The notes under the pieces: model-generated
The model's database searches: none
The model's input: the letters and a program-made list of their open reading frames with translations, nothing else
Told to the model about the DNA's origin: nothing
Virus record (IMG/VR): IMGVR_UViG_3300048606_000054
Reading direction: 5' to 3' (one strand)
Length of the DNA: 24,700 nucleotides
Origin: a virus
In this document: one piece after another, positions 5,772-24,418 of the stretch
Position numbering within the stretch: position 1 is the stretch's first letter
Layout: every line of letters begins with the position of its first letter
Made by a program: the position numbers and the translations under genes

Positions 5772-6473
5772 ATGAAAAGTTTAAAATTAACCACTGGCGC
5801 AGGAGATACATTTTCCGAAGTATCAAAAAAGGCAAAGGAAGTCGCTCAAAATACCGAATTAGTAGAATTTGAATTTAATGGGGTTACGTGCTTCGTAAAT
5901 AAGGACACAAATATTGAATGCCTTAACAGGGACTATATGAACTCTTGGACAATGAAGTGGAAGGAAGTTGGGCCAATTTGTGTTGAAAATTATGATCCTA
6001 AAACGCAAAAAGAACTGGACAAAAGAAAAGCTGATGCAGAAAGGAAGCGCGATAAGGCCGCCAAAAAACAGGCTGAAGAAGATGCTGCCGCCAAATCTGA
6101 AGTTGATGAAAAAACAAAGAATGTCAAACTTCTGATTTGGCCTGAAAAGCTGGAAGAGTACCAAAAATATGTGGAAACAAATAGCAGTGATGGATATAGC
6201 AGGGGTGTTGTAGACTATGCAGAACAATGGGCCAAACTAATGCAAATTGCGATAGCTGATGGCAAAACCAACATAAGAGATATTGCTGAAGAAACCCAGA
6301 AACCGCTTTCCTATCTTGGAATTACCGGATTCATGTATGGCTGCGTAATACAAGCCCTATCCCACTTCTGGCTTTTTGGAGAAGAGTTAAGAATTTGGCA
6401 TAACAAAGAATACGGTGTATCAGAAGACAAAGAAGGAGTTGTAAACCCCGCAATACTGACCATTAATACATAG
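5772..6473 (+). CDS. Phage hypothetical protein with central coiled coil
   Basis: 233-aa ORF with a 'GITGFMYGC...GEELRIWHN' C-terminal domain. Confidence 0.8.
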   Translation: MKSLKLTTGAGDTFSEVSKKAKEVAQNTELVEFEFNGVTCFVNKDTNIECLNRDYMNSWTMKWKEVGPICVENYDPKTQKELDKRKADAERKRDKAAKKQAEEDAAAKSEVDEKTKNVKLLIWPEKLEEYQKYVETNSSDGYSRGVVDYAEQWAKLMQIAIADGKTNIRDIAEETQKPLSYLGITGFMYGCVIQALSHFWLFGEELRIWHNKEYGVSEDKEGVVNPAILTINT

Positions 6474-7346: not shown

Positions 7347-7646
7347 ATGGCTAAGACAAAAAAGAAAATAACCTGTACTGCCGAGATAGAACTCTCTTAT
7401 AATGAAAACTCAAAGGCTTTTAAAGAGGGGTTTGAATCATACAAAAAACATATTTACGATGGGGCTGTAGAAGATTTCTTAACGCACATCTGCCACAATA
7501 TGCTCCATTTTGGAAGTGACGTATGGGTAGATGGAGTGGGCCACGTAAAACACAAAAAGCAAAAACTATCTGAGGTTCGAACTCCCTATGCGGGTGTTGA
7601 ATTGCTCAGTGACCCTTTCTGGGATTTTGATTACGAAGTTGAATAA
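7347..7646 (+). CDS. Hypothetical protein
   Basis: ATG 7347 preferred because it lies just after the 7342 stop. Confidence 0.75.
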   Translation: MAKTKKKITCTAEIELSYNENSKAFKEGFESYKKHIYDGAVEDFLTHICHNMLHFGSDVWVDGVGHVKHKKQKLSEVRTPYAGVELLSDPFWDFDYEVE

Positions 7647-7676
7647 AAAAAAAGCCTGGCGATAACTAACCAGGCT
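7645..7676 (-). terminator. Minus-strand intrinsic terminator
   Basis: Minus strand reads AGCCTGG-ttagttatcg-CCAGGCT then a run of about 8 T. Confidence 0.75.
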
Positions 7677-7770
7677 GCGTGAACGTTCTCGTAGCTAATT
7701 TGCGCATCATTTTTTTAGGCTTCCGCCTTGTGATCTATCAGTATATCGGGGTGTTGTTATAGTGAGTGAA
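7645..7770 (-). ncRNA. Candidate ~125-nt small RNA (may encode the 14-aa peptide MMRKLATRTFTQPG)
   Basis: Bounded by a consensus promoter (7775-7805) and a terminator (7645-7676). Confidence 0.55.
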
Positions 7771-7774
7771 TGAT

Positions 7775-7805
7775 CAAAATTAAGGCAGAAATTAAAATCT
7801 GCAAA
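7775..7805 (-). promoter_or_regulatory. Leftward Bacteroidetes promoter
   Basis: Minus strand TTTG (7805-7802), 19 nt, TAATTTTG (7782-7775). An inverted repeat GCAGA-N8-TCTGC spans the spacer. Confidence 0.7.
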
Positions 7806-7823
7806 AGTTCTTTGATAAAAAGT

Positions 7824-7855
7824 TTTGGAAGTTCCAACCGGCTTCATTAGGTTTG
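7824..7855 (+). promoter_or_regulatory. Rightward Bacteroidetes promoter for the ncRNA/replication module
   Basis: TTTG (7824-7827), 20 nt, TAGGTTTG (7848-7855). Confidence 0.75.
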
Positions 7856-7859
7856 TCCT

Positions 7860-8280
7860 GCTTTCGACAAAATCTTAATTAATGGGATTAATTTATTTTT
7901 ATTACATTTGCATACTAGGCGAAACCCGCCAATTTCCATATAAGATTTTTCAAAGCTGACATTCCCCGGATTTATTCGGGGTTTTGTCATTATACGAGCC
8001 TCTAATCCAATGAGGAACTCAGAGACGGGAACACCTTTTGTATAGCCCGAAAGGATTTCTATACAATCGCCTGTCTTTGAAGTGGCAAGCTACTCCATTA
8101 GCCTCTGTTAAACCGATAAAAAGGGAACCGTGCGCGTAGTGTGTTAAATGATCTGCCTGGATGTTAACATTTTCCGAGATCAGCCAAAGCATTTCCGATA
8201 CTGGCTCCGTTAAACTAATTTTTTGGTCATAGATTATGTTTATTCCTTTAGGGGTAGGGGTAAACATTTTCTGTGGCCTG
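7860..8280 (+). ncRNA. Candidate large structured ncRNA or structured leader
   Basis: Consecutive stems with G.U pairs: 7860-7956, 7957-7989, 8019-8080 (GAAA tetraloop), 8081-8094, 8150-8181, 8182-8206 and 8225-8278 (GGGGUAGGGG). No credible ORF. Confidence 0.65.
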
Positions 8281-8311
8281 CGAAATCCGAAAACTTTCCA
8301 TTAAACTAATT

Positions 8312-8821
8312 ATGGGGCCAACAAAAAGAATAATGAAGGAGTTTGGAATTAGGGAATATTCCTTTAACAACAAGGTTAGATTTATAAAAGTAAAACTAAG
8401 GCATTCCCTAAGGCAGAATGGGCTACTTTCTATGAAGGGACATTCTTTTGAAGACTTGGTTATGTATTTTAGAGAGTTTACGGATGAAAAACCATACAGA
8501 TTAACCAAATATGAATGTTATAAGTGGCTTTTTACTATTTGGCATGACAGCTCAAATGAGTTTATTCGTAAAACCGATCCTCTTAACTTTTATATTTCAA
8601 AAGAATGGAGGGATTTGAGGGCTAAGTTTTTGAGAGACTTTTATCCGCGCTGTATGAATTGTGGTAGTTGCGAAAGAATTTCAGTAGATCATATAAAACC
8701 AAGATCATTATACCCAGAATTAGAATTGGATTATGAAAATCTTCAGGTTTTATGTACTCCATGCAATAGCAGGAAGTCAAACAGAGATATAATTGATTAC
8801 CGATCCTTACAACCGTTTTGA
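8312..8821 (+). CDS. HNH endonuclease with ~90-aa N-terminal extension
   Basis: FYISKEWRDLR...RCMNCG...VDHIKPRS...LDYENLQVLCTPCNSRKSN. ATG 8312 preferred over GTG 8273. Confidence 0.9.
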   Translation: MGPTKRIMKEFGIREYSFNNKVRFIKVKLRHSLRQNGLLSMKGHSFEDLVMYFREFTDEKPYRLTKYECYKWLFTIWHDSSNEFIRKTDPLNFYISKEWRDLRAKFLRDFYPRCMNCGSCERISVDHIKPRSLYPELELDYENLQVLCTPCNSRKSNRDIIDYRSLQPF

Positions 8822-8822
8822 T

Positions 8823-9176
8823 ATGCCGTCAAAAAAAACAATAGAATGGCTCCCCGAAACCGCCCCCACTCCGTTTGATGGAGCAGGATTTAAGGAACTT
8901 TGGCAAACTTTGCTGAAGATGTCAAAATGGAAGAAAAAGCCATTGTCGGCTATTGAAATGGCCTGTAAACGACTGAAGCGGTTTGATGAATGCTTTGCCA
9001 GTCAGTTGGTGGAAAATGCGATAGAAGGGAATTACCAGGGAGTAGTATTTACGGATAGCCAAATGAAATTCGAACAATATAAACGCAACTTAAATGGAGC
9101 AAAAAATTTCGGAAATATTAAAGACAAGCCTATTGCCACAACTCAGCCTAAAGGAGGTTTTGGACAGCTACAGTAA
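8823..9176 (+). CDS. Replication-initiator C-terminal-like domain protein
   Basis: 'FKELWQ...KWKKKPLSAI...L......A..VENAIEGNYQGV' resembles the C-terminal helical domain of phage replisome organisers. It lies directly before the loader ATPase. Confidence 0.55.
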   Translation: MPSKKTIEWLPETAPTPFDGAGFKELWQTLLKMSKWKKKPLSAIEMACKRLKRFDECFASQLVENAIEGNYQGVVFTDSQMKFEQYKRNLNGAKNFGNIKDKPIATTQPKGGFGQLQ

Positions 9177-9939
9177 CATCGAGTTAACTGATGATGAGGT
9201 CATGGAGGCCATGATATGGAGAAAACAAAAGAAGGCCGGAGAGATGGAGGGGGCAAAAATTAGAGAACAGGAAGCGGAAAATAGAAAACGACTTACCGCG
9301 CCAACCACGTATGATCTTGTAAAATCGCTAATGCTATACAGGGCAGAAAAAAGATTTGGTGCTGCATTTGTAATTGACAAGACTAACGAGGTAATATTTG
9401 AATCCCTGTGCAGATATTTTGGGAATGATAAGGAGTTCGTAGCTATGATGGCTGCTATTGGAGTCGAGAACCCTTCTTTGGATAAAGGGATATTCTTAGC
9501 CGGAAATTTCGGATGTGGTAAAACCTGGATGATGAACCTTTTTAAACAGAATCAAAGACATTGTTTCGCTCTTAAACCAGCCAAGGAAATTGCCAATGGG
9601 TATCGTGATAGCGAAGAACCAGAACGTTTTTTAACAGACTGGGCTACACCCCTCAAAAATGCCTATAATGATGCCACTGTGTTTTTCCAGCCATTCTTGG
9701 GGGTATGCATAGATGATATTGGTTCGGAGGACTTGAAGAACACCTATGGGAATAAGGCTAATGTTATTGGAGACTTAATTGAGCTAAGGTATGCTGCCGG
9801 TTATTGTGGGCCAGGATTTCATGCTACAACTAACCTTACAGCAGATCAATTGCTACAGTATTACGGGGGAAGGGTGACAAGTAGAATGAAGCAGATATTT
9901 AACTTTATTGAGCTTCCGGGAGCCGACAGGAGGATATAA
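9094..9939 (+). CDS. DnaC/IstB-like AAA+ ATPase (helicase loader)
   Basis: Walker A GNFGCGKT, Walker B VCIDDIGSE, HATTNL and YGGRVTSRMKQIFN...GADRR. Confidence 0.85.
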   Translation: MEQKISEILKTSLLPQLSLKEVLDSYSNIELTDDEVMEAMIWRKQKKAGEMEGAKIREQEAENRKRLTAPTTYDLVKSLMLYRAEKRFGAAFVIDKTNEVIFESLCRYFGNDKEFVAMMAAIGVENPSLDKGIFLAGNFGCGKTWMMNLFKQNQRHCFALKPAKEIANGYRDSEEPERFLTDWATPLKNAYNDATVFFQPFLGVCIDDIGSEDLKNTYGNKANVIGDLIELRYAAGYCGPGFHATTNLTADQLLQYYGGRVTSRMKQIFNFIELPGADRRI

Positions 9940-9980
9940 CCCTATTATTCAATTTATATTAATCACTAAACTGGATAAAT

Positions 9981-10403
9981 ATGCAAGTCGATTTCACCTC
10001 TCTTTATGAACAAAAGAATCTAAACTTTCTAAATGAAGATGAAATAAATTATATTATATCCCATAATGATATTGACAGAGGAAAGATAAGAGATGAATAC
10101 CATTCCTTCAGAGAGCTATACGACTTCAGGAAAATGTATAATTCTGCGCTATTCAATGAATGGTTTTTGGCTGAAAAATATCAAGTTCATAAATCAATTA
10201 GGCATAATGATGGTGAGCTTTGTTTTGGAGGCGGATGGTTTATTGTAGTGGCCATGCTTCCATCGGGTCAAATAACAAACCATTACAAAATGGAAGATTG
10301 GGATTTGTTTGATATTCCTGCGGACGATATTGCCAGGTTTCCTTTCGATGGCCATACTCCAGCAGATGTATTAGATAGACTGCATAAACTTGTAACAACA
10401 TGA
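9981..10403 (+). CDS. Conserved phage protein with (W/F)DGH motif
   Basis: YHSFRELYDFR...KSIRHNDGE...GWFIV...GQITNHY...WDLF...FDGHT. Confidence 0.7.
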   Translation: MQVDFTSLYEQKNLNFLNEDEINYIISHNDIDRGKIRDEYHSFRELYDFRKMYNSALFNEWFLAEKYQVHKSIRHNDGELCFGGGWFIVVAMLPSGQITNHYKMEDWDLFDIPADDIARFPFDGHTPADVLDRLHKLVTT

Positions 10404-10624
10404 CAAAAGATAAAAAATTAAAGCAGGAGATGGATGCAGATTACCCCTTAATCCCAATGATGGACATAACCGATGAAGCAAGATTACTTGCAGTAGCTTG
10501 GGTTGAAGGTTATGAGGCTCAAGGAATGGATATTCCAGGAAAACAAAAACTGGCTTCGGATATTATGAACTATGCAAGAAGATATGCGAATAAAATTGTA
10601 TCGGATGAAAAAAAGACAACATAG
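10400..10624 (+). CDS. Hypothetical protein
   Basis: ATGA-coupled. Confidence 0.7.
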   Translation: MTKDKKLKQEMDADYPLIPMMDITDEARLLAVAWVEGYEAQGMDIPGKQKLASDIMNYARRYANKIVSDEKKTT

Positions 10625-10946
10625 GGCCACATCCATAGAAGCCCACGAATCCGTGAAAGAGCACAAGGAGGCTATGTATGACAAGATCGTGGAAGGATTG
10701 AGAAAGCTAAGAGTAGGAGGTCATTTTGAAGCTATAGCTGAAGCTGCGGGACTAGAACCAGCCCAAGTATGGAAGAGATTACCCGAAATGATAGAGTTGG
10801 GGCTTGTGTACAATGTTGGCACTACAAGAACTACTTCTTCAGGCAGAAAGGCAATGGTGCGGCAGCTTGTCGAAATAAAGATATTGCAACAAAATAATAT
10901 CCAGATTAAGCCAATGCCGATTTTAAAACAACCAGATTTATTTTAA
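10605..10946 (+). CDS. Winged-HTH phage protein
   Basis: TSIEAH...IAEAAGLEPAQVWKRLPEMIELGLV...RTTSSGRKAMV. Confidence 0.75.
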   Translation: MKKRQHRATSIEAHESVKEHKEAMYDKIVEGLRKLRVGGHFEAIAEAAGLEPAQVWKRLPEMIELGLVYNVGTTRTTSSGRKAMVRQLVEIKILQQNNIQIKPMPILKQPDLF

Positions 10947-10956
10947 ATATAATTTT

Positions 10957-12108
10957 ATGGAAGCAGTAAAGGAACAGGTTGCAACTAAGAAAGCGTTCTC
11001 ATTTTCAATAGATGTTAAAAAACATAAGCGCCTTTTTGATCCGCTATTTTCTGCAATAAATGCAAGTACGGTATTGCCCATCTTAGAGGACGTACTTATA
11101 AACAATGAAAATGGGAAGATTTCTTATTCTACAACTGATCTTGAAAATATAGTTACTATTGAGCTTCCATCTGAAAGTTTAAATAAATTCACTATTGTTT
11201 TTCCTCGAATTGAATTAAAATACCTTTTAAGGCATTCTGTTTCTGATCTTCTTGACATTTCTCTAGCCGGGGATATTTCGGAGCCAAATATTATAGTGAG
11301 GTCGGAAGCCTTCACATTGAAATTAAATGCGCACAGGGCAAATGATTATCCGAAACTAGTTACAATAGAAAAGGAAAGGTCTTTTACTATTGATGTTAAA
11401 GAAATCGCGCCTATTTTAGTAAACGCCTTAAAGTTTGTGTCAAATGATTGGCTAAGACCCGCCATGACTGGTATATTCTTCACGAATATGGACGGGTATT
11501 TAACTGTTGTTTCCACAGATGCGCATAAACTTTATTGGCAGACAATTTGCAAGACCCCTGTAGGATTCGAAAATAACGAGTTCCTTATATCGGCAAAGGC
11601 GGCTGGTATAATTATAATGCTTTGCAAGGGAGAAAATGAAGTTCGCTTGGATTTGACCGAGCATCATCTTGGGGCAAGATTTGATGGGAAGTATATTATA
11701 TCCAGAATAATGGATGAGAAATACCCGAACTTTAGAGCCATACTCCCGCAGGCATTTCCACTTAACTTCTACATAAATAGAAAGAATCTAACCTCCTCTT
11801 TAAACCTCTGCCTTCCCTTCACAAATAAATCGACTTACCAAATAAATATAAGCGTATCGCCAGGTCAGATTGTTATTGATGGAGGAGATAAAGACTTTAG
11901 CCTTGATTTTGCACACCGAATACCTTTGGCAGGAACAAATCTTGACACTTTTAAACCTTTCTCATTCGGCATGAACGCAAAGTTTTTATTAACGGCTCTT
12001 TCATGCTCTAATCAAGAATTGGTTTGCATAAACTCCTCAATGTCTCCAACAAAGGCAATTATTGTAGATGAGCATTGCTTACTTATGCCATTAATGCTAA
12101 ATCAATGA
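10957..12108 (+). CDS. dnaN: DNA polymerase III beta sliding clamp homolog
   Basis: 383 aa; TVLPILEDVLI, TTDLE, DYPKL, RPAMTGI, VSTDAHKL, ISRIMDEKYPNFRAILP, MNAKFL and C-terminal LLMPL. Confidence 0.9.
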   Translation: MEAVKEQVATKKAFSFSIDVKKHKRLFDPLFSAINASTVLPILEDVLINNENGKISYSTTDLENIVTIELPSESLNKFTIVFPRIELKYLLRHSVSDLLDISLAGDISEPNIIVRSEAFTLKLNAHRANDYPKLVTIEKERSFTIDVKEIAPILVNALKFVSNDWLRPAMTGIFFTNMDGYLTVVSTDAHKLYWQTICKTPVGFENNEFLISAKAAGIIIMLCKGENEVRLDLTEHHLGARFDGKYIISRIMDEKYPNFRAILPQAFPLNFYINRKNLTSSLNLCLPFTNKSTYQINISVSPGQIVIDGGDKDFSLDFAHRIPLAGTNLDTFKPFSFGMNAKFLLTALSCSNQELVCINSSMSPTKAIIVDEHCLLMPLMLNQ

Positions 12109-12530
12109 CACAAAAAATAAATACAATTATTCATAACTACGAATATGTTAAAGTCCATAAATGGATAAAAAAACAATTGGGGGCCGCCTCGTATTGCGCA
12201 AATGATAGGTCTCATAAAGGAAAAAGATTTGAATGGGCAAATATTTCAGGGGAATATAAATTTGATATTAACGATTTTAAGCCATTGTGCCCATCTTGTC
12301 ATAGAAAAATGGACTTTACTGATTCTCAAAGAGAAAAGCTAAGAAAGATAAACATGGGGAATACAAATCGTGCTAGAAAAGTATACCAATTTGGGTTGGA
12401 TGGGAGGTTGATAAAAGAATGGGATATGATAAAAGATGCTAATGAAGCTCTGGGGTTGTCTACCACAGCAATATGTAATGTATTAGCTGGAAGGGCTACA
12501 ACAGCAGGAGGATGGATATGGAAAAAATGA
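12105..12530 (+). CDS. HNH-like/NUMOD1 homing-endonuclease-type protein
   Basis: VHKWI...EWANISGEY...LCPSCHRKMD plus a NUMOD1-like tail KVYQFGLDGRLIKEW...ICNVLAGRATTAGGWIWK. ATGA overlap with dnaN. Confidence 0.75.
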   Translation: MTQKINTIIHNYEYVKVHKWIKKQLGAASYCANDRSHKGKRFEWANISGEYKFDINDFKPLCPSCHRKMDFTDSQREKLRKINMGNTNRARKVYQFGLDGRLIKEWDMIKDANEALGLSTTAICNVLAGRATTAGGWIWKK

Positions 12531-12763
12531 CATTTGAAGAGGTCGTAATCCTGCTTCAGTTAAATCATATTTACCCGATAACATTGACTGAGTTGGGGAA
12601 GGATGGCAAAAAGATCACTGGCCTAGAGGTTCCGGTAAATCCATTTACCTACGAATCAAAAAAGGGACACATTGAACAGGTAGTAAAAGAAAGGGGATTC
12701 CGTGTTGACTATCTATCAAATCAGCAGATTTTGTATATAACAAAGTTAAAATCGAAGAAATGA
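12527..12763 (+). CDS. Hypothetical protein
   Basis: ATGA-coupled start at 12527. Confidence 0.7.
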   Translation: MTFEEVVILLQLNHIYPITLTELGKDGKKITGLEVPVNPFTYESKKGHIEQVVKERGFRVDYLSNQQILYITKLKSKK

Positions 12764-13110
12764 AGACAATAAAAGAGATAAATGAGGATTTATCCGCAAT
12801 AGTTGCTCGCATTAAAAACAAGGATAAAGAAGAGCTAAAACCCGCTATAGAAAAGAGACTCCGGAAAAGAATTACATTTCTTAACACCTGCATAATGTAT
12901 TTGGAGCATGAGCCAACTTCGGCTTTTATTAAAAGCGAAATAGAAAAGGTAAGAGCTAAGATAGACAGAAGAATGGGACTTTTTATTTTCGATGAAGTCA
13001 TGGTGGATAAAAAAACTGTAGCAAAAATGAGGAAGGCCCATGAGAAACAATACGAAGTCCCTCATCTCAGAGATCAATTGTATGCATTGAGATTTTTACT
13101 TAAAGATTAA
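12760..13110 (+). CDS. Hypothetical helical protein
   Basis: ATGA-coupled. Confidence 0.75.
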   Translation: MKTIKEINEDLSAIVARIKNKDKEELKPAIEKRLRKRITFLNTCIMYLEHEPTSAFIKSEIEKVRAKIDRRMGLFIFDEVMVDKKTVAKMRKAHEKQYEVPHLRDQLYALRFLLKD

Positions 13111-13114
13111 ATAT

Positions 13115-13387
13115 ATGAAATCAGGAACCGTGAAGTTGGTAAATGCCGTTGGCGGAGTGGTTGATACAGCCCTCTATAAATCCAGTGAACAGTGGAAGAA
13201 AGTTATAGATCACTGGAAAATGGTTTACGGTGATAGGCTAATCATCCAATTCGCCCCCGATCCCGGCCCTACCGACTTCATAGTTCCCATCAAAAAAACT
13301 AAAAGATTGGTCAAGCCCACCAAGACTATAGGAGGCATAAACAGCATCAGGATACCAAAGTCCTCACCACGAACGCATTACCTATAA
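13115..13387 (+). CDS. Hypothetical protein
   Basis: Operon packing. Confidence 0.7.
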   Translation: MKSGTVKLVNAVGGVVDTALYKSSEQWKKVIDHWKMVYGDRLIIQFAPDPGPTDFIVPIKKTKRLVKPTKTIGGINSIRIPKSSPRTHYL

Positions 13388-13460
13388 TAGGGATCGACTG
13401 GCCCTCTTATTGACCCCTATATATACCAGTAGAAAAAAGATCACAAATTTGACAAATAAA

Positions 13461-13492
13461 TTTGGAAACGACATTTCGGTGTCATATATTTG
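13461..13492 (+). promoter_or_regulatory. Bacteroidetes promoter with operator-like palindrome, probably leaderless
   Basis: TTTG (13461-13464), 20 nt, TATATTTG (13485-13492); GACA-tttcgg-TGTC in the spacer; ATG at 13497. Confidence 0.75.
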
Positions 13493-13496
13493 ACTT

Positions 13497-13688
13497 ATGA
13501 AGAAAGATTGGGAGGTAAAACTTGTTCAGATGGCCGCTAATGATGCAGAAAGGGGCAAAATTTCGAAGGAAATGGATTTGACGATGGAAGCCCTTGCAAA
13601 AAGAATAGAGCGTTTAAAGAGGAAATGGGGCTGCAAATCGGTTGCCGCCCTGGTAGCAATATTTTTCAGGAATAATCTCATAAAATAA
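13497..13688 (+). CDS. Stand-alone LuxR/GerE-type HTH regulator
   Basis: ISKEMDLTMEALAKRIERLKRKWGCKSVAALVAIFFRNNLI matches the LuxR C-terminal pattern. Confidence 0.7.
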   Translation: MKKDWEVKLVQMAANDAERGKISKEMDLTMEALAKRIERLKRKWGCKSVAALVAIFFRNNLIK

Positions 13689-13694
13689 AAAACT

Positions 13695-14264
13695 ATGGCA
13701 AATAAACAGCAGTCAATGACCGCAAAAAACAAGGCTTTCTGGAAACTCCCAAAAGCAACGCAGAGAGTGGCTATAGCTAAAGATGTTATCGCAAGTTTTA
13801 AAATTGGGTTCTATAAAGCCAGAACTGGTGCATATTTCCGTGTGCTTGATCTCGCAAATCCAATAAAAGATGCTCCTGAAAAACTGGATGCTGTTTTGGG
13901 TATGTTTAAAAAAGAAGGGGCTACCTGCCAGGTATGTGGAATTGGAGCTTGCTTTACCAGTATGGTAAATATTGGGAACAGGGCCAAAACTACTGATTTT
14001 TTGAGCTCCTGTATTGAGGAGGGAGAAGGTATTAATGACTCTTCAATGAGAGGGTTACTAAGAAAGGTGTTCTCTTCTACGCAATTAACTCTTATTGAGA
14101 ACGCTTTTGAAATAGATGCTAGCTTCGAGGATAATGATGCCTCGGTGCCTTATAAAAAAAGATATGAGGCGGAATCCTTTGGACAAAAATTCGATGATAA
14201 TGCAGAAAGGCTAATAGCCATAATGAAGAATATCATCAAAAACAAAGGAGAGTTCATCCCATAA
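13695..14264 (+). CDS. Phage hypothetical protein
   Basis: RVAIAKDVI...CQVCGIG...QLTLIENAFE...RLIAIMKNIIKNKGEFIP. Confidence 0.8.
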   Translation: MANKQQSMTAKNKAFWKLPKATQRVAIAKDVIASFKIGFYKARTGAYFRVLDLANPIKDAPEKLDAVLGMFKKEGATCQVCGIGACFTSMVNIGNRAKTTDFLSSCIEEGEGINDSSMRGLLRKVFSSTQLTLIENAFEIDASFEDNDASVPYKKRYEAESFGQKFDDNAERLIAIMKNIIKNKGEFIP

Positions 14265-14275
14265 ACTCATTTTAT

Positions 14276-14701
14276 ATGTCACTACTTAGCTTCTTGTTTG
14301 GAAGTAAACAGAAAAAGAAATTCGTAAAACCCGATGCCAATAAGCATTGGGCTTACACTCCGCGAACAAATTATAATAGAAGTCTTAGAAATGCGGATAA
14401 AGAAGATGAGGAATACCAAAAAAGGAAAAGGCGGCAAGATGAGGACGACAACCTGTTGAACCCAATGAATCCATTCAATCCAATAAGCCCCCTTTATGAT
14501 TCAGGCAATGATTCTACTCCGCCTGCTTCAAATGATTTCAATGGCTTTGATGGAGGCTCAGGAGGAGGTGGCGGGGCTTCAGGAGATTGGGGTAGCGATA
14601 ATAGCAGCAGCCCATCCAGCGATTCTGGTTCATCTTATGATTCTGGAAGCAGTTCGTCTGATAGTGGTAGTTGTGACAGTGGAGGTTCTTCTAGTGATTA
14701 G
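14276..14701 (+). CDS. Low-complexity Gly/Ser/Asp-rich protein
   Basis: Basic N-half, NPMNPFNPISP, then GFDGGSGGGGGASGDW and DSGSS repeats. Confidence 0.7.
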   Translation: MSLLSFLFGSKQKKKFVKPDANKHWAYTPRTNYNRSLRNADKEDEEYQKRKRRQDEDDNLLNPMNPFNPISPLYDSGNDSTPPASNDFNGFDGGSGGGGGASGDWGSDNSSSPSSDSGSSYDSGSSSSDSGSCDSGGSSSD

Positions 14702-14812
14702 CCCCACCGGGAGCCAAGGGTAGCGAAGATGACTATCGAATCCTGAATCAAGTTCTTTTAAATAACAATCAGCCTCAAGAGGATTGGCGGGTAGGAACAA
14801 CTCGCAAGAGGT

Positions 14813-14922
14813 ATTGGGAGCGTGTCGCGGCTGTATGAACCAGAAGAAACGCATGGAAGATAGGATCGCAACCTGTCGGCAGCAAGTCAATGGTTAGTTA
14901 ATTCAGTCCTGCCGCTCCCAAT
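14813..14922 (+). ncRNA. Candidate structured RNA (tRNA-like closing stem)
   Basis: Perfect 10-bp ATTGGGAGCG/CGCTCCCAAT stem enclosing internal helices. Confidence 0.4.
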
Positions 14923-14967
14923 TTATTTAAAATAAACATTTGATAACAATACTAAAAACAGGTTTAT

Positions 14968-15246
14968 ATGCTAAACGAAAATGATTCACATTATCTGTAT
15001 AACGACTTACTAAATAATGCCAGAATGCAAAACGCATTGGATATTGTCAAAGGAACCGGGGCTGTATTCGGAATAGATGGCGACCGGTTCTATTACGGGT
15101 TTGGTCATATTGCTGAATCAACGGGTGTGTATGGGTTCGGCACAACCCCATCCGGAGCGTTAGACGCATTCGCTGTGGCCTATTATTCGCAAACAGTCAA
15201 TCCTCCTAGCACGAATCAGATAACCCCTAATCAACTAAACAGTTAA
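14968..15246 (+). CDS. Hypothetical protein
   Basis: GVYGFGTTP..A..AF pattern (HicB-N-like fold possible). Confidence 0.7.
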   Translation: MLNENDSHYLYNDLLNNARMQNALDIVKGTGAVFGIDGDRFYYGFGHIAESTGVYGFGTTPSGALDAFAVAYYSQTVNPPSTNQITPNQLNS

Positions 15247-15260
15247 ACTATCATATTGTT

Positions 15261-15527
15261 ATGGGAAGGACTATCTGGAAATTCGAACTAGAAATAAAAG
15301 ACACTCAATTTATTTCAATGCCAAAGGGTGCTGAAATTCTGTGCGTACAAATTCAGATCGGAAATCCGTGTATGTGGGCGCTAGTTGATCCGGACGCAGA
15401 AAAGCAAGATATTGAATTTTCAACCTACGGAACGGGTCGCGCCGTGGATAGCAGACCAAAAACATATGTAGGAACCTATCAGATCATTAACAGGATGCTG
15501 GTATTCCATGTATTTGTTCATCCTTAA
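15261..15527 (+). CDS. Conserved phage hypothetical protein
   Basis: TIWKF...MPKGAEILCVQ...MWALVDP...YGTG...YVGTYQ...LVFHVF. Confidence 0.8.
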   Translation: MGRTIWKFELEIKDTQFISMPKGAEILCVQIQIGNPCMWALVDPDAEKQDIEFSTYGTGRAVDSRPKTYVGTYQIINRMLVFHVFVHP

Positions 15528-15565
15528 CCCACCATTTCAATTACTATATATACAAACCATGTACC

Positions 15566-15997
15566 ATGAGTAACGAAGAAATAAAAGAATATAACCGCAT
15601 AAGAATGGGTAACGTTCTGGATGAATACACACCGGATACTTTGCCAACGTACGAAGATTGCCGCACCCTGCTGTTTAACGAACAATATCGAAAAAAGAAT
15701 GGTGATTATAAGCCAGAAGGCGATGGTATTCTTGATCGAAATCCCACAGAGTTGGAACGATATGTATATGAAGAAACTCCAAAGAATAAGACAGCGGAAA
15801 TTTATTTCAGGGAACGCCTTGCCGATTTGCTTAATTGGCATCGGACAGCAATTGCTGAACACCTCCCCATATTACGGGAACAGGCAGAGAAGATAGCTGG
15901 TGATGCATGGGATGCGGCATTGGATTGGGATAGAAATGTGGGCGAGTGGGATGATAGTTCCCCAGACAAGGAAACCTACCTAAAACAATTCGAATGA
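15566..15997 (+). CDS. Hypothetical protein
   Basis: Operon packing. Confidence 0.75.
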   Translation: MSNEEIKEYNRIRMGNVLDEYTPDTLPTYEDCRTLLFNEQYRKKNGDYKPEGDGILDRNPTELERYVYEETPKNKTAEIYFRERLADLLNWHRTAIAEHLPILREQAEKIAGDAWDAALDWDRNVGEWDDSSPDKETYLKQFE

Positions 15998-16212
15998 GCA
16001 GATACGATCCATCAGACCCGGTAGATCAAGAGAAAATAAGGAACCAGTTTTTGATCATTGAAAACTATAGGGATTTCGTTGGTTGGCTATTTGATGATCC
16101 AGATATGATTGATTGGATGAGTGAGACCGAAGCCTGGGATAAATTCAGAGAATGGCAAGATAAGCAGGCCCAGCAAAATGATTTAGGGAAAGATCAATCA
16201 ACTATTAAATAA
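15994..16212 (+). CDS. Hypothetical protein
   Basis: ATGA-coupled. Confidence 0.7.
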   Translation: MSRYDPSDPVDQEKIRNQFLIIENYRDFVGWLFDDPDMIDWMSETEAWDKFREWQDKQAQQNDLGKDQSTIK

Positions 16213-16221
16213 GATAAAGCA

Positions 16222-16428
16222 ATGAGTACCGAAAAAAGAAAGATCACTTCAGTTCACATAGAAAACGATATAGTGAACGACAGGCCAACTCCGGTATTTA
16301 CTGATGAGCATGGGATAGAATGGGTTTTTGAGGAACAAACCTCTCAATACTCTGGGTATATAACGGCATTCGTTGAAAAAAGCAAGAGCTGGTATTTCAA
16401 ATCTGAAAATAAAACAAACAAGGCTTAA
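16222..16428 (+). CDS. Hypothetical protein
   Basis: Operon packing. Confidence 0.7.
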   Translation: MSTEKRKITSVHIENDIVNDRPTPVFTDEHGIEWVFEEQTSQYSGYITAFVEKSKSWYFKSENKTNKA

Positions 16429-16709
16429 TGGAAACGGCTGTTGATAAAAAGCCATTTGGTAAAAGATTCAAGGTTGGTGACACGTTTTTGACCACAACTC
16501 CAAAGCTGATCAAAAATACAATGTATGGTCCAAAATATAAAAGATACAGAGATGGGGACAAGGATTTATTTCAGAAAGGGAAACGGAAATATTATTGCGA
16601 AGTTGTCTGTTTGGCGGAAACAAAAGTTGGCTGGCACACTACCCCTTTCGATAGACGAGGCCCAAGATACTGGCAATTCACATACTTGGTAAGAATATTA
16701 AATAATTAA
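16428..16709 (+). CDS. Hypothetical basic protein
   Basis: TAATG-coupled. Confidence 0.7.
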   Translation: METAVDKKPFGKRFKVGDTFLTTTPKLIKNTMYGPKYKRYRDGDKDLFQKGKRKYYCEVVCLAETKVGWHTTPFDRRGPRYWQFTYLVRILNN

Positions 16710-16729
16710 ACAGCAAAACAACAGATAGT

Positions 16730-17449
16730 ATGAAATGGATACCAATAGACAAAGAAAGAAAAGGCGAAAACGGAGAAATGCTCTATGCTCGATACAAAGG
16801 GCAAAAGGCAATATTAATATACTTAACATCTGATTTCCCCTGCTGGAATTGGTATTATATGTCAAGGAGGCCTGCTCAAAAAATACAGAATTATGAATGG
16901 AAAGATATTTTGATTCTCGACGAATCCCCCACAGGATATACAGGAGATGATGTAGCAGTAGAAGCCAATAGCCAGGACGTAGAGGAAAAGGCGAAAGCCT
17001 ATGCAGCCGATTGTATGGGAGAATACGATCCAGAACTTCAGGATGAGTTTGATGATATAGTTAGGCATTTCATAGCTGGCTCCAATAGTAACCAGCAGGG
17101 AGGGGATGCGCGATCGTGCCCATGCTTGTATTTAGATGAACCATGCCAACCTCATTGCACATGCAAAAACGGCCTTTGGTCACATGGTTGCCTTTATTGT
17201 TGCCGATATGGGAGCGTTGAGCAAAGAACTGAAAAAGCAAAACAATTGGCCCAAATATTAAAAGCTGGTTATGCCGCCCAATCCACTCCAATCCCTCCCG
17301 GAATAGTAGAGCAGTTACGTGACAAGAATCCGTGGAATAAAACACATCCACTTCAACATGGAGGATATAACGAATGCTGCGACACCCTCTCCTCCCTTAT
17401 TTCAAAACAAGTAGATGGCATAGAGGAGAGGGGAGAGGGGAAAGTTTAG
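16730..17449 (+). CDS. Mosaic hypothetical protein with a Cys-rich module
   Basis: MKWIP start; CPCLYLDEPCQPHCTCKNGLWSHGCLYCC. Confidence 0.75.
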   Translation: MKWIPIDKERKGENGEMLYARYKGQKAILIYLTSDFPCWNWYYMSRRPAQKIQNYEWKDILILDESPTGYTGDDVAVEANSQDVEEKAKAYAADCMGEYDPELQDEFDDIVRHFIAGSNSNQQGGDARSCPCLYLDEPCQPHCTCKNGLWSHGCLYCCRYGSVEQRTEKAKQLAQILKAGYAAQSTPIPPGIVEQLRDKNPWNKTHPLQHGGYNECCDTLSSLISKQVDGIEERGEGKV

Positions 17450-17505
17450 TGTTTTCTGCAAAAAAGTGAAACGCCCCTACACTATATAATAGGAGGACTT
17501 AAATT

Positions 17506-17769
17506 ATGGGAACACTTAGAAAAATATTAGCGACATCAGCCAAGAAAGCAAATCTGGGAGCAAAGGGCAAACCCGGCCGCAGAGCCTATCCGTTGAGAAA
17601 GATAGTTGATTCAGATGGAGAGCATGAAATCCTTGAATGTGGACACAAGGGGCCATCTCACCGTGTAGTAGGCACTGATCTGTTTTCTACTTATCAACCA
17701 GCAAATAGCAGAAGGTGCAGACAGTGTTTTGAAAATAATAAAGTTAACACAATCAATATAAACCTGTAG
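17506..17769 (+). CDS. Small Zn-ribbon protein
   Basis: LECGH...RRCRQC. Confidence 0.7.
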   Translation: MGTLRKILATSAKKANLGAKGKPGRRAYPLRKIVDSDGEHEILECGHKGPSHRVVGTDLFSTYQPANSRRCRQCFENNKVNTININL

Positions 17770-17771
17770 AT

Positions 17772-18062
17772 ATGGCATGGACAAACGTAACAGAGGCAAT
17801 GCCTCCCGCCGGAAGGGAAGTAAAAATGAAGTTCGTGGACGAAGAGGCCGATTGGCATGGCGATCCCGTTGTGGTCTTAATGGACATTGGACTAGATCAC
17901 TATAAAACCCTGCTATGGTGGAATGAATGCCCTGACAGCGCCCAAACCGATCAACAAGCCTTAGCGGTAGAGCTGTTTGAATTCATAACGGGTAACAACG
18001 CTAAGGAATTCAAGGGTACGGTAGAGACGATTCAACGGAGATATACGATAATTAAAAAGTAG
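17772..18062 (+). CDS. Hypothetical protein (DUF551-like start)
   Basis: MAWTNVTEAMPPAGREV resembles the W..V.E.LP motif. Confidence 0.65.
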   Translation: MAWTNVTEAMPPAGREVKMKFVDEEADWHGDPVVVLMDIGLDHYKTLLWWNECPDSAQTDQQALAVELFEFITGNNAKEFKGTVETIQRRYTIIKK

Positions 18063-18067
18063 AAGAA

Positions 18068-18442
18068 ATGGAAAGCAAAGAGGTTAAAATCGAAAGCCCC
18101 TGGAAACGATTCAAAAGTATCAGATTGAGATTAGGCTTAACGTTGAGGCAGATTGAAAACGCAACCGGACTTTCCAACGCCTATCTGAGCCAACTGGAAA
18201 ACGGGAAAATTAATAAGCCATCCTACGAGACAATTGAAATATTAACTAAGTTCTATGAGAGCAGGAAGCAAACAAAGCGCTGCCCCTGCTGTTTTTCAGA
18301 AGATATTAAAGAAGAGAAGTTAACGGGGAGTAACGGAGTTTTCGGCCCCGGACACGCTTCTTGGATTATTCTAAATTTCCATAATTGCCAATCCTGTGGG
18401 GTTATGTTTAAGCTCCTAGATAAACCAGAAACAAAACCATGA
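18068..18442 (+). CDS. XRE HTH regulator fused to a C-terminal Zn ribbon
   Basis: IRLRLGLTLRQIENATGLSNAYLSQLENGKINKPS plus CPCC...CQSCG. Confidence 0.85.
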   Translation: MESKEVKIESPWKRFKSIRLRLGLTLRQIENATGLSNAYLSQLENGKINKPSYETIEILTKFYESRKQTKRCPCCFSEDIKEEKLTGSNGVFGPGHASWIILNFHNCQSCGVMFKLLDKPETKP

Positions 18443-18672
18443 TCCTTTTACTCCTAACAATATTGCTCGATTCCCTTCCTCCCAAATCCTACTATGGCGA
18501 GAGGGCGATACCGACCATAGGTATTATAAAATCTCCCGTGGTGTTTATTGACAAGGTATTGGAACCTGGAGGACTGGACGGGATACCAATAGGTAAAACC
18601 TTTGTCATGTATAAAGAACTTCTGGGGGAGAGGGAGGTGTATTATTTAACCAGTAAAAAAGAGAAGAAATGA
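18439..18672 (+). CDS. Hypothetical protein with hydrophobic N-terminus
   Basis: ATGA-coupled. Confidence 0.6.
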   Translation: MILLLLTILLDSLPPKSYYGERAIPTIGIIKSPVVFIDKVLEPGGLDGIPIGKTFVMYKELLGEREVYYLTSKKEKK

Positions 18673-18917
18673 GAGAGAAAACATGGCAATACGGCACGCA
18701 ATATAAAGCAGAGGTAATTATCGCCACAAAGAACATTCTCGCGGTCAAGGCCGAAAACGACGAAGGGTTTATACCGATGGATCATGGAGTCGAAGAACTG
18801 CCAAAGGAGGGCGATCTCGGAAAGATTGTCTTTATGAAAGGCGGCCCGACTGGCGGGTACTGGAAATGGTTCCCATCTCTCGCAACCCATTCACCTTCTA
18901 AATCTGATAAGCAATGA
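18669..18917 (+). CDS. Hypothetical protein
   Basis: ATGA-coupled; GGPTGGYW motif. Confidence 0.7.
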   Translation: MREKTWQYGTQYKAEVIIATKNILAVKAENDEGFIPMDHGVEELPKEGDLGKIVFMKGGPTGGYWKWFPSLATHSPSKSDKQ

Positions 18918-19120
18918 CAACAGAACAGCAGATTAACATCATTACAGCCAGATACCCGGATGCCTATATGAGGAAATACGCAAAGCTGTCAATGGTTATA
19001 TGGTGTCCAATGCTCGATTGCCGTCTATCTGGGTTCTTTCACACCGGGGAAGAAGCATGGGCCGACGCTGTTGAATGGATAAAAAGAAAAGGTCAGAGTA
19101 AAAAACTTCAAGACAAATGA
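18914..19120 (+). CDS. Hypothetical protein
   Basis: ATGA-coupled. Confidence 0.7.
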   Translation: MTTEQQINIITARYPDAYMRKYAKLSMVIWCPMLDCRLSGFFHTGEEAWADAVEWIKRKGQSKKLQDK

Positions 19121-19530
19121 ACCCAGAACAGCTTTTAATTAAGAGGTTTGAATGTATTGGAACAGATGACGCGCATTATCCAGGAAGCCCCTTTAACGTT
19201 GGCGACATACTTGAAATGTCGGGAGATTGCGCTGGTAATCAGAGAACACAAAGCGGAGTGTTTGAAAATTCAGTGTATATGCCGGAATGGTATCCTCTTC
19301 TCTTCAAGCCCCTAAAATGGTACCAGAAAAGAGAACCAGCCGATCTACCACTATTCGTAAAGATAAAAAAGCAGGTACTACAGGTTAATTACTGGGAACT
19401 TAATAAGGAGGGGCAAGCCCTGATGTGGCTAAAGGAAGAGTGGGGCGGTTCCCTGGATTGGTATCCCGATGAATTCATGCCAGCGACCAGGGAGGAATTT
19501 GATAAATACGTTAAAACTAAAGAGAAATGA
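19117..19530 (+). CDS. Phage hypothetical protein
   Basis: YPGSPFNVGDIL...YPLLFKPLKWY...FMPATREEF. Confidence 0.75.
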   Translation: MNPEQLLIKRFECIGTDDAHYPGSPFNVGDILEMSGDCAGNQRTQSGVFENSVYMPEWYPLLFKPLKWYQKREPADLPLFVKIKKQVLQVNYWELNKEGQALMWLKEEWGGSLDWYPDEFMPATREEFDKYVKTKEK

Positions 19531-19802
19531 GCCATAGGTATAGCATATTTCAATTGATAGAGAAGGCCCACGATCACGGAAGGGATTGTTCTAAAATGTG
19601 GGAAAGGGATAAAAGCCTTCTTGAGTTCTTAAAGCAAAATAACCTCATCAATGAATTTAATTCCTGGAAGGCAAAAAAGAACAAAGACATGCACCCGGCA
19701 ATCGCGAAATCCTTAAAGACTAAAGGTCACACTATTCGCGAGATCGCAAAGTTTCTTGGATATAAACACCCCGGATCAATCAGCCACTTATTATCTAAAT
19801 AG
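19527..19802 (+). CDS. Protein with C-terminal HTH
   Basis: LKTKGHTIREIAKFLGYKHPGSISHLL. Confidence 0.7.
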   Translation: MSHRYSIFQLIEKAHDHGRDCSKMWERDKSLLEFLKQNNLINEFNSWKAKKNKDMHPAIAKSLKTKGHTIREIAKFLGYKHPGSISHLLSK

Positions 19803-19808
19803 TTAAAA

Positions 19809-20192
19809 ATGAATACTGAAAAGAAGATATACATAGCCAGCAAAACAAAGCACGCTGACAAATGGATAAAATTAAGATCGGAAGGGGTTGATATTATCTC
19901 TACCTGGATTGATGAAGCGGGAGAAGGTCAAAGCGAAGATATGGCAGATTTGTGTAAACGCTGCGTAGATGAATGTCTTTCATGCGATTATCTAATTATT
20001 TACCGGGAACCGGATGATTATCTGAGGGGTGCTTTTATTGAAATGGGGATAGCGTTATCCAGAAAGACAATTCCGGTTTTGCTCGTTGGAGAAGTATTGC
20101 CCAAAGGATCAGCGTTTACTTTTGATGACAACGTATTTCTTGGATTCAAATCAGTAAATGACGCTGTTGGCTGGATAGAAGCCTGCTATTAA
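19809..20192 (+). CDS. Nucleoside 2-deoxyribosyltransferase (NDT)-like protein
   Basis: KIYIAS, STWID, CDYLIIY, GAFIEMGIAL (catalytic-Glu helix) and PVLLVG. Confidence 0.7.
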   Translation: MNTEKKIYIASKTKHADKWIKLRSEGVDIISTWIDEAGEGQSEDMADLCKRCVDECLSCDYLIIYREPDDYLRGAFIEMGIALSRKTIPVLLVGEVLPKGSAFTFDDNVFLGFKSVNDAVGWIEACY

Positions 20193-20215
20193 TCAACCCT
20201 TAAAACCCCTCAACA

Positions 20216-20347
20216 ATGAAACTAAAACGACAAGGATACGGCTGGTTAGACAAGGACGGCAATTACACATCTCATCCTCCCGGCTGGTACAAGCCATCAT
20301 TATTTAAAAGGCTATTGCTTTTTATTTCAAAACTATTTAAACAATGA
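20216..20347 (+). CDS. 43-aa small protein with amphipathic C-terminus
   Basis: Not in the track: MKLKRQGYGWLDKDGNYTSHPPGWYKPSLFKRLLLFISKLFKQ; ATGA-coupled to the next ORF. Confidence 0.55.
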   Translation: MKLKRQGYGWLDKDGNYTSHPPGWYKPSLFKRLLLFISKLFKQ

Positions 20348-20445
20348 CATTCTTCCACTACACAACCTCTGATACCCTTGGTAATACCTACATGGTTATC
20401 GGAACGGAAACAACCGCTTGTGAAACTATAAAAATTGAACAATGA
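20344..20445 (+). CDS. 33-aa small protein
   Basis: MTFFHYTTSDTLGNTYMVIGTETTACETIKIEQ; ATGA overlaps at both ends. Confidence 0.5.
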   Translation: MTFFHYTTSDTLGNTYMVIGTETTACETIKIEQ

Positions 20446-21053
20446 TAACGACAAAGCTATTTATTCTCGCCTCCGCCCTTACCCTAACACTTGCCTTCAG
20501 AACCCATCAGCCAGCGGTTCATAAAGAATTGGAACCTCCCGGCTATTTTGAAATAATGAAATGGTATTGGAGCGGCTTCCCTAAAAAGTATAATGGGTGG
20601 GAAGTTGAATTTGAAAAAGGGGGTAATATCCACGGATGGACAGAAGGTGTATACTGGGACAAGGTAAATCTATCCTGTAAAAAATGCGGCTACCTAGATA
20701 GGTATACTTACGACGTAACTTTTTCATACGGGTATAACGATGAGGCAACCCTAAAGGTCACGCAGAATAAAGACACAACAGGTAAATACATGAATAAAAA
20801 ATATCCTAAACCGAAACCTTGTCCCATCCCCGACACAACGGTAAAGCCAGTTTATCGCTACTTCCTTAGAATGGACAACCCACTCAGGTATTTCATGGCC
20901 GTCGATACCGTAAACGTCATAGCGGGCATGGTAGGAAAGGCGAAATCGAAAGACGAGGCCGATCTATTGCTGGAATCAGCCGCCAGGAACCTTAGAATAC
21001 TTTACGATGAGGTGAAAGTGGATAGCGTTAAAATTCAGGGAGGCAAGCCATGA
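20442..21053 (+). CDS. Putative exported protein
   Basis: Signal-peptide-like MITTKLFILASALTLTLAF. Confidence 0.7.
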   Translation: MITTKLFILASALTLTLAFRTHQPAVHKELEPPGYFEIMKWYWSGFPKKYNGWEVEFEKGGNIHGWTEGVYWDKVNLSCKKCGYLDRYTYDVTFSYGYNDEATLKVTQNKDTTGKYMNKKYPKPKPCPIPDTTVKPVYRYFLRMDNPLRYFMAVDTVNVIAGMVGKAKSKDEADLLLESAARNLRILYDEVKVDSVKIQGGKP

Positions 21054-21280: not shown

Positions 21281-21281
21281 T

Positions 21282-24312: not shown

Positions 24313-24316
24313 TGTT

Positions 24317-24358
24317 CAAAGGTATATCAAATCGTGCAAATCGTGCGACTAATCGTGC
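24317..24358 (-). promoter_or_regulatory. -7 promoter element plus three GCACGATT direct repeats
   Basis: TACCTTTG (24324-24317) ends 4 nt before the ATG at 24312. Plus-strand AATCGTGC occurs at 24330, 24339 and 24351. Confidence 0.65.
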
Positions 24359-24418
24359 GAATCCCGTACTCCTCATTCCTCCGGCTTATAGCTTTCCATA
24401 GCCAGGGATACCACAGAA

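What the first reader, a model, noticed from the sequence alone, without database searches (positions are those of the whole stretch)
7824..8821. Large structured ncRNA directly upstream of an HNH nuclease in the replication module
Seen: a consensus promoter puts +1 near 7860, where a long stem begins (GCTTT..AAAATCTTA..ATGGGA pairing with TTCCAT..TAAGATTTT..AAAGC, 7860-7956). It is followed by TGACA-CCCCGGA/TTCGGGG-TGTCA (7957-7989); TCAGAGACGGG/CCTGTCTTTGA enclosing TTGTATAG/CTATACAA and a CC-GAAA-GG tetraloop (8019-8080); three shorter stems; and a final 21-bp interrupted hairpin (8225-8278). The many G.U pairs work only on the plus strand, arguing for RNA-level selection. About 450 nt of non-coding sequence is exceptional in this dense genome. 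The next ORF is a 169-aa HNH with a basic ~90-aa N-terminal extension and no visible RuvC or PLMP motifs. Known analogues: HEARO/omega RNAs with IscB, and ColE1 RNA II. Inference: either a new RNA-associated (possibly RNA-guided) minimal HNH system, or an origin/primer RNA with the HNH as partner or passenger.
Basis: partly seen in the sequence, partly recalled or inferred. Interest (0 to 1): 0.85.

Follow-up and report, generated by a model that had tools for sequence, protein, structure and literature searches.

The report
Phage RNA beside headless replication initiator
A soil phage carries a conserved, strongly folding 450-base non-coding stretch in front of a replication-initiator gene that lacks its DNA-binding half, and this predicted RNA likely serves as the replication start signal, while the nuclease gene next to it is likely a swappable passenger rather than an RNA-guided partner.

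Summary
The structured region is real: it folds on the plus strand only (z -3.8 vs -0.2), follows a consensus Bacteroidota promoter, has no Rfam match and has two homologues (3' 165 nt 74% identical in L087). The RNA-guided HNH idea is not supported. The HNH has no RuvC, RRXRR or PLMP, and its closest relatives sit behind unrelated RNA families. In one phage lineage 18 of 18 loci keep an RNA of this general type but only 2 keep the HNH. The gene after the HNH is only the C-terminal half of a lambda-O-like initiator, followed by a DnaC-like loader. Upstream of 27 of 32 such headless initiators in other phages lies a recurring structured leader, against at most 1 of 9 full-length ones (lineage-confounded). 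Best reading (0.45): a ColE1-RNA-II-like origin RNA replacing iteron binding. Main rival (0.30): a transcription-control leader. No transcript or function is shown, and the strong covariation is for analogous families, not this one. The scan noted similar RNA cassettes on other DNA before, and a published candidate list has HNH-upstream RNAs whose sequences I could not search.

The parts
7653..7676 (-). Intrinsic-terminator-like hairpin with T tract that would end a leftward transcript
7645..7770 (-). Predicted ~125-nt leftward transcript; holds a 14-codon ORF (7710-7666) and a 13/15 complement (7746-7760) of 7976-7990; role unclear
7775..7805 (-). Leftward full-consensus Bacteroidota-type promoter, back to back with the rightward one
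7824..7855 (+). Rightward full-consensus promoter TTTG-N20-TAggTTTG; predicted +1 near 7861; same motif at the same place in L087 and L076
7860..7956 (+). Long stem, nearly strand-symmetric; encloses a second -7 box (7903-7910) and a small hairpin (7918-7930)
7957..7989 (+). Terminator-like GC hairpin (possible attenuator)
8019..8080 (+). Nested stem with GAAA tetraloop; L087 folds an equivalent stem from different sequence
8137..8294 (+). Conserved 3' core of the RNA: 74% identical to L087 over 165 nt (E 3e-15); includes core hairpin 8149-8182 and the YGGCTCCG motif at 8202-8209
8225..8278 (+). Terminal hairpin with pyrimidine 5' arm and G4-TA-G4 run (8251-8260); 90% identical to L076 over 39 nt
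8312..8821 (+). Free-standing HNH endonuclease, helical basic N-terminal domain plus HNH core; inferred replaceable cargo
8823..9176 (+). Headless replication initiator: only the C-terminal domain of lambda-O-like/Bacteroides-phage initiators, no HTH; starts 1 nt after the HNH stop
9094..9939 (+). DnaC-like helicase loader ATPase

Best explanation
The 450-base stretch is a predicted non-coding RNA that likely acts in cis as the phage's replication origin: its G-rich 3' end would stay hybridised to the template as an R-loop, and the headless initiator with the DnaC-like loader would load the host helicase on the displaced strand, while the HNH is likely a passenger. Shown: the folding, the promoter motif, the homologues, the missing N-terminal half of the initiator, the lack of an iteron array, the repeated pairing of headless initiators with structured leaders, and the patchy presence of the HNH in an analogous lineage. 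Inferred: transcription, R-loop formation, priming or helicase loading, and homing by the HNH. The early terminator-like hairpin would limit how often the full-length RNA is made.
For: The ORF at 8823 aligns only with the C-terminal part of 307-323-aa Bacteroides phage initiators; the two scanned carry an N-terminal HTH_36. ESM Atlas neighbours are ~100-aa stand-alone viral proteins (0.96), and structure matches are to proteins of 278-325 aa. No iteron-like array in 7600-9200. Three different headless C-terminal families occur behind HNH-anchored or RNA-anchored leaders of several unrelated sequence families. Starting from the initiator domain: 13 of 32 non-redundant headless loci have family-B RNA upstream on the same strand and 14 of the other 19 match leaders from the HNH-anchored set, so 27 of 32; full-length controls 0 of 9 and 1 of 9 (one 84-nt match). 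Starting from family-B RNA: the 6 strong initiator-domain matches in 44 whole records lie in open frames of 124-166 aa; 14 loci have a headless initiator downstream and 15 a primase-like gene upstream. In one lineage the RNA start motif is constant (18 of 18 with enough flank) while the slot behind it holds nothing, an HNH (2), or other genes. The window shares two 3' motifs with these leaders: YGGCTCCG (10 of 120 HNH-upstream segments vs 3 of 683 downstream windows) and a G4-N-G4 run (18 of 120 vs 6 of 683). A G-rich stretch is essential for R-loop priming in ColE1 and at mitochondrial CSBII (PMC6317783, passages).
Against: No expression, R-loop or origin-activity data. The two homologues of this very RNA family are followed by HNH + PRPP-synthetase-like gene (L087, a 3-kb contig) or HNH + an unrelated gene (L076; no initiator-domain match in its 23.8-kb, 48%-complete record). 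Family-B models do not hit the window, so the class-level association transfers only by shared architecture and two short motifs. The headless/full-length contrast is confounded: headless loci and the leader library come from one pool of environmental phages, controls from distant prophages with 1.5-kb flanks. The B2 subfamily lacks the G-run hairpin. GC skew follows coding strand with no inflection here. No RNA I-like overlapping antisense promoter was found. Column-wise pair counts among the three family members are poor (window to L087: 18 same, 8 changed but kept, 14 broken, 1 gap), though each folds equivalent hairpins alone.
Confidence: 0.45

Rival explanations
1. A cis-acting transcription-control leader: an attenuator followed by a put- or conAn2-like antiterminator RNA that would let polymerase read through the ~14-kb rightward operon.
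For: It starts at a consensus promoter, holds a terminator-like hairpin early and precedes a long run of + strand genes (8312-22220). The order promoter, terminator-like hairpin, core, terminal hairpin, start codon recurs in L087 and L076, which have no initiator directly behind the HNH. In 34 of 49 family-B loci the next mechanical ORF is on the same strand. A large antiterminator RNA at the start of long operons is known (conAn2; PMC8191782 abstract and outline).
Against: The conserved core lies behind the terminator-like hairpin. In some analogous loci an AT-rich, promoter-like stretch separates the RNA from the next gene (by eye), and 15 of 49 have an opposite-strand next ORF (noisy calls; one confirmed gene, L236). 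It does not explain the link to headless initiators.
Confidence: 0.3
2. A stand-alone RNA gene that acts in trans (binding a host or phage protein) and sits in the replication module only because of the early promoter.
For: Family B is a modular, pseudoknotted RNA (97.4% cells paired, 17 of 49 pairs with two-sided change, 0 of 500 shuffles as high), tolerates large insertions and occurs in varied gene contexts.
Against: Recurrent placement beside primase, resolvase or headless-initiator genes; no trans target identified.
Confidence: 0.12
3. The HNH is the origin-recognising or nicking head of a split initiator, with the structured region as its substrate.
For: It sits where the initiator's N-terminus would be, 1 nt from the next start; P0006 is a natural fusion of this HNH family with the same C-terminal domain; L007 and L151 show overlapping stop/start.
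Against: 16 of 18 sister loci with a near-identical headless initiator of another family have no HNH; many HNH relatives have no initiator behind them.
Confidence: 0.07
4. A new minimal RNA-bound or RNA-guided HNH nuclease system.
For: All three members of the window's RNA family lie directly before an HNH of this family, and the nearest HNH (L087, 69 of 161 identical) has the nearest RNA. The N-terminal domain is basic.
Against: Those three were found through the HNH. No RuvC, RRXRR or PLMP, no RF02033 match. The next-closest HNH (L007, 62 of 141 identical, same N-terminal domain) carries family-B RNA, and others carry unrelated leaders. Family-B RNA has this HNH downstream in 4 of 120 loci (80 with long flanks).
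Confidence: 0.06

Closest known systems
ColE1 RNA II primer precursor and mitochondrial CSBII R-loop (PMC6317783, passages read)
   Same: Promoter-driven, several-hundred-base structured transcript with a G-rich run, in a replicon without an origin-binding initiator domain.
   Different: Tailed phage with its own initiator C-terminal domain and DnaC-like loader; no overlapping RNA I-like antisense found; no sequence match; priming untested.
Lambda O/P-type and Bacteroides phage B40-8 initiator-loader modules
   Same: Initiator C-terminal domain followed by a DnaC-like ATPase.
   Different: HTH N-terminal half and iteron-bearing linker are absent; a structured RNA and an HNH stand in their place.
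HEARO/omega RNA with IscB (RF02033; PMC9755519, passages read)
   Same: Structured RNA directly 5' of an HNH-containing ORF.
   Different: 169-aa protein with no RuvC, RRXRR or PLMP; no Rfam match; RNA and HNH not obligately linked in analogous families.
conAn2 (PMC8191782, abstract and outline) and HK022 put (recalled) antiterminator RNAs
   Same: Structured RNA at the head of a long operon.
   Different: Core lies behind a terminator-like hairpin; activity untested; no partner gene tested.
Candidate structured RNAs of Fremin et al. 2023 (PMC10690425)
   Same: Its supplement lists candidates directly upstream of phage HNH genes, e.g. DNAVirus_1007, _1486, _4303.
   Different: Sequence files were not searchable, so identity with these families is unknown; the main text has no hit for HNH, primase or helicase.

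Membership tests
HEARO/omega RNA-IscB | ORF has RuvC as well as HNH | tested here: not met
   Only HNH-type Pfam/PHROG hits; model is a helical N-domain plus HNH, best fold match a small phage HNH, E 2.8e-3
HEARO/omega RNA-IscB | RRXRR / PLMP motifs | tested here: not met
HEARO/omega RNA-IscB | RNA matches RF02033 | tested here: not met
HEARO/omega RNA-IscB | RNA and nuclease travel together | tested here: inconclusive
   Not so in analogous family B or for L007; the window's own family is known only from 3 HNH-anchored loci
HEARO/omega RNA-IscB | Variable 5' guide directs cleavage | not testable with these tools
   needs biochemistry and close homologues
ColE1 RNA II-type origin | Long structured transcript from a dedicated promoter | tested here: inconclusive
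   Promoter motif and folding present; transcription not shown
ColE1 RNA II-type origin | G-rich stretch in the transcript | tested here: met
   8251-8260; conserved in L087 and L076
ColE1 RNA II-type origin | Overlapping antisense RNA I | tested here: not met
   Only leftward promoter found lies upstream and does not overlap the RNA
ColE1 RNA II-type origin | Persistent RNA:DNA hybrid processed to a primer | not testable with these tools
   needs R-loop and junction mapping
Lambda O-type iteron initiator | N-terminal DNA-binding domain and iterons in the gene | tested here: not met
P1 c4 / P4 CI antisense control | Rfam C4-type RNA | tested here: not met
P1 c4 / P4 CI antisense control | Small RNA complementary to leader targets | tested here: inconclusive
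   13/15 match, but 7 of 100 shuffles match as well, duplex ranks 15th of 2458 windows, hairpin not opened
put / conAn2 antiterminator RNA | Located at the start of a long operon | tested here: met
put / conAn2 antiterminator RNA | Confers terminator read-through | not testable with these tools
   needs reporter or in vitro transcription
Free-standing HNH homing endonuclease | Intact HNH/zinc motifs; patchy among sister phages | tested here: met
   Invariant C114, C117, D126, H127, N143, C148, C151, N152; a family member is present in 2 of 18 sister loci of another lineage
Free-standing HNH homing endonuclease | Cuts the HNH-free allele | not testable with these tools
   needs cleavage assay

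The most novel reading that the evidence does not exclude
A widespread class of tailed-phage replicons has discarded the origin-binding half of its initiator and starts replication from interchangeable structured RNAs that form an R-loop; this window is its Bacteroidota-phage version, and HNH genes in the slot behind the RNA drive the exchange of RNA cassettes.
Probability: 0.4. Interest if true: 0.85.

Novelty: new variant of a known kind. Interest (0 to 1): 0.62.

Why it matters
Headless initiators are common in environmental phages (about 2800 stored stretches matched the pattern for one family, the 80 best all headless), and how they find an origin is unexplained. If the RNA is the origin, it gives a job to several uncatalogued phage RNA families and a simple mini-replicon test for RNA-initiated replication in tailed phages. 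If it is an antiterminator, it would be a new phage example of one. Either way it removes a false lead for a tiny RNA-guided nuclease.

Tried and rejected
Rfam: no gathering hit in the window or in 20 related loci; only 3 chance hits at E<10. No whole genome is held, and the 5.8-billion-protein search could not be made. blastn of the element and of the L007 leader against 50,697 phages found nothing; the L163 leader gave one 53-nt match. Direct scans with the window's initiator and loader found no relative. Pattern scans for the window's own core: 7 of 7 hits were chance, one returned only L076's contig, one a chance Acinetobacter hit. Model R2 found only its 3 seeds in 191 sources. Family-B models do not match the window, so direct homology is rejected. 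An antisense ORF over the core is rejected: by eye, indels between the window and L087 shift its frame while the bases stay conserved. Trans pairing of the leftward RNA to the 7957-7989 hairpin is weak. An ORF-free-length metric was too noisy to separate headless from full-length loci. GC skew was uninformative. Sequencing runs: no RNA holder listed; the two DNA runs are one sample, possibly the source, and show no variants. No Bacteroidota genome handle was obtained, so prophages of that phylum were not searched. The G-run's invariance in alignment A3 is not counted as evidence, because rows were selected for it. The wide structural search was not run.

Full report
Setting. The window is part of a phage genome from a soil metagenome (contig up to 91.8 kb). 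A Bacteroidota host is inferred from TTTG-N19-21-TAnnTTTG promoters (consensus recalled; papers holding the term were only listed) and from best initiator hits in Bacteroides phages. The gap 7647-8311 lies inside a long run of + strand genes.

Observation. The region folds better than shuffles on + only (z -3.78 vs -0.20), and the last hairpin is the best + strand window of 410. G.U pairs are fewer than claimed, and the first long stem is nearly strand-symmetric. Only four full promoter matches exist in 24.7 kb; two are back to back here, 7824 rightward and 7805 leftward. The leftward one would make a ~125-nt transcript ending at a terminator at 7676-7653. Rfam has no match.

Homologues of this RNA. 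HNH-anchored scans gave 160 loci. L087 has the closest HNH (69 of 161 identical) and an upstream region 74% identical over the 3' 165 nt (E 3e-15); L076 shares the last hairpin (90% over 39 nt) and traces of the core. Both start with the same promoter motif and fold equivalent core and terminal hairpins from different sequence. A column-wise count on the MAFFT alignment is weak, however: 18 same, 3 one-sided, 5 two-sided, 14 broken, 1 gap for window to L087. Three sequences cannot establish covariation. A model of the three found no fourth member in 191 sources, and HNH-independent pattern scans gave only chance hits or L076 again.

The wider class. The other HNH loci carry structured leaders of many unrelated sequence families. 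Two 3' motifs of the window recur across them: YGGCTCCG (10 of 120 non-redundant upstream segments, 1 of 120 on the reverse strand, 3 of 683 downstream windows) and a G4-N-G4 run (18, 2 and 6); the 120 include the window and L087. One family (B) was then collected without reference to the HNH (120 loci, about 170 estimated). It is a well-supported RNA: with one pseudoknot that I added by eye, 97.4% of cells pair and 17 of 49 pairs change on both sides, 0 of 500 shuffles as high (24 sequences chosen from 29). Its models do not match the window: it is an analogue, not a shown homologue.

The HNH. Pfam, PHROGs, an AlphaFold model (pLDDT 91.9) and Foldseek show a helical N-terminal domain plus an HNH core, best match the GVE2 phage HNH, and no RuvC. 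HEARO/IscB proteins have RuvC, HNH and usually RRXRR (PMC9755519, passages), so membership fails. Seven loci share the N-terminal domain: L007 has family-B RNA (80 bits), L096/L060/L066 and L013 have other leaders, and only L087 and partly L076 resemble the window. Family-B RNA has this HNH behind it in 4 of 120 loci, of which 80 were fetched with long flanks, some truncated. In 22 loci of one lineage with a 94-100% identical initiator domain, the 18 with at least 700 nt of upstream flank all hold the RNA start motif; the slot behind it is empty in most, holds an HNH in 2 and other genes in 4. The HNH therefore reads as cargo; homing is inference. For the other side: P0006 fuses this HNH to the initiator domain, and all three members of the window's own family lie beside an HNH, though they were found that way.

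The initiator. ORF 8823-9176 hits phrog_678 (O-like) and aligns only with the C-terminal part of three Bacteroides phage initiators; the two scanned have HTH_36 at the N-terminus. The Atlas places it among ~100-aa stand-alone viral proteins. A DnaC-like loader follows, a beta-clamp lies 1 kb further, and there is no iteron array. Headless domains of three families stand behind HNH- or RNA-anchored leaders. Starting from one of these domains, all 80 best viral loci were headless and all 12 prophage loci full-length. After dropping near-duplicates and loci with under 1400 nt of flank (3 headless, 1 full-length), 13 of 32 headless loci have family-B RNA upstream and 14 of the other 19 match leaders of the HNH set, 11 of them one family with a GTGGCTCC motif; controls score 0 of 9 and 1 of 9. 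In 44 whole records with family-B RNA (44 of the 80 loci), the 6 strong initiator-domain matches lie in frames of 124-166 aa, and HTH_36 passed its cut-off in 1. This contrast is confounded by lineage and by the source of the leader library. L087 and L076 have no initiator behind the HNH (both fragments).

Mechanism. An initiator without its origin-binding half needs another way to open DNA. In ColE1 and at mitochondrial CSBII a transcript with a G-rich stretch forms an R-loop that primes replication (PMC6317783, passages); T4 R-loop origins are recalled, not read. I give 0.45 to the RNA doing this here, with the headless domain and loader loading the host helicase on the displaced strand. Every step after the sequence anatomy is inferred. 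Against it: no G-run hairpin in subfamily B2, no RNA I-like overlap, no skew inflection. A separately encoded winged-helix protein (10572-10946) could also supply origin binding; I did not test this. The main rival is a transcription-control leader (0.30; conAn2, PMC8191782 abstract and outline; HK022 put recalled). The leftward small RNA has a 13/15 complement to the terminator-like hairpin, but 7 of 100 shuffles do as well and it does not open the hairpin in co-folding, so it is left unexplained.

Novelty. Four searches aimed at this arrangement listed no paper whose title or abstract opening describes it; most subscription journals are not in the library. Fremin et al. (PMC10690425: passages, and rows of supplementary file 5) list candidate RNAs upstream of phage HNH genes; files 1, 2 and 4 could not be searched, so these families may already be catalogued as candidates. 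Earlier notes of this scan describe similar cassettes on other DNA, with readings split between origin and leader; they are leads, not support, and the word 'headless' is taken from one of them. Verdict: a real, Rfam-absent phage RNA of a recurring kind, not an RNA-guided HNH system, most likely tied to initiation of replication.

Noticed in passing
window 7645-7805 (-): Leftward consensus promoter, ~125-nt transcript with a 14-codon ORF in an A-rich start context, and its own terminator; not present upstream of L087.
   Followed up: partly
window 5772-6473 (+): Protein whose C-terminal half matches the Thoeris inhibitor Tad4 (PF25186, E 1.7e-28): a likely anti-defence gene.
   Followed up: no
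window 10957-12108 (+): Phage-encoded DNA polymerase III beta clamp, followed by a second HNH/NUMOD-type ORF at 12075-12530.
   Followed up: no
window 13141-13260 (-), 14281-14400 (+), 24301-24420 (+): Other strongly folding windows (z -7.7, -6.1, -5.3), not examined.
   Followed up: no
L163, L078, L059, L076, L017, L036 upstream leaders: By eye, a short 5' hairpin loop is complementary to an unpaired patch in the following long terminator-like hairpin, with the letters changing together between phages: a recurring kissing or attenuator module.
   Followed up: no
L014, L029, L331, L360, L374, L380 upstream leaders: A further ~175-nt RNA family with a GTGGCTCC motif and terminal hairpin, common before headless initiators; not scanned against Rfam.
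   Followed up: partly
L308-L329: One phage lineage swaps two different RNA cores and several cargo genes at a single site before an almost invariant headless initiator.
   Followed up: yes
L096, L060, L157, L017 upstream of HNH: T-rich tracts that resemble reversed A-rich initiator-linker sequence in place of, or beside, the folded core.
   Followed up: no
L087 2020-2841: The closest RNA+HNH homologue is followed by a PRPP-synthetase-like gene, a different context from the window.
   Followed up: partly
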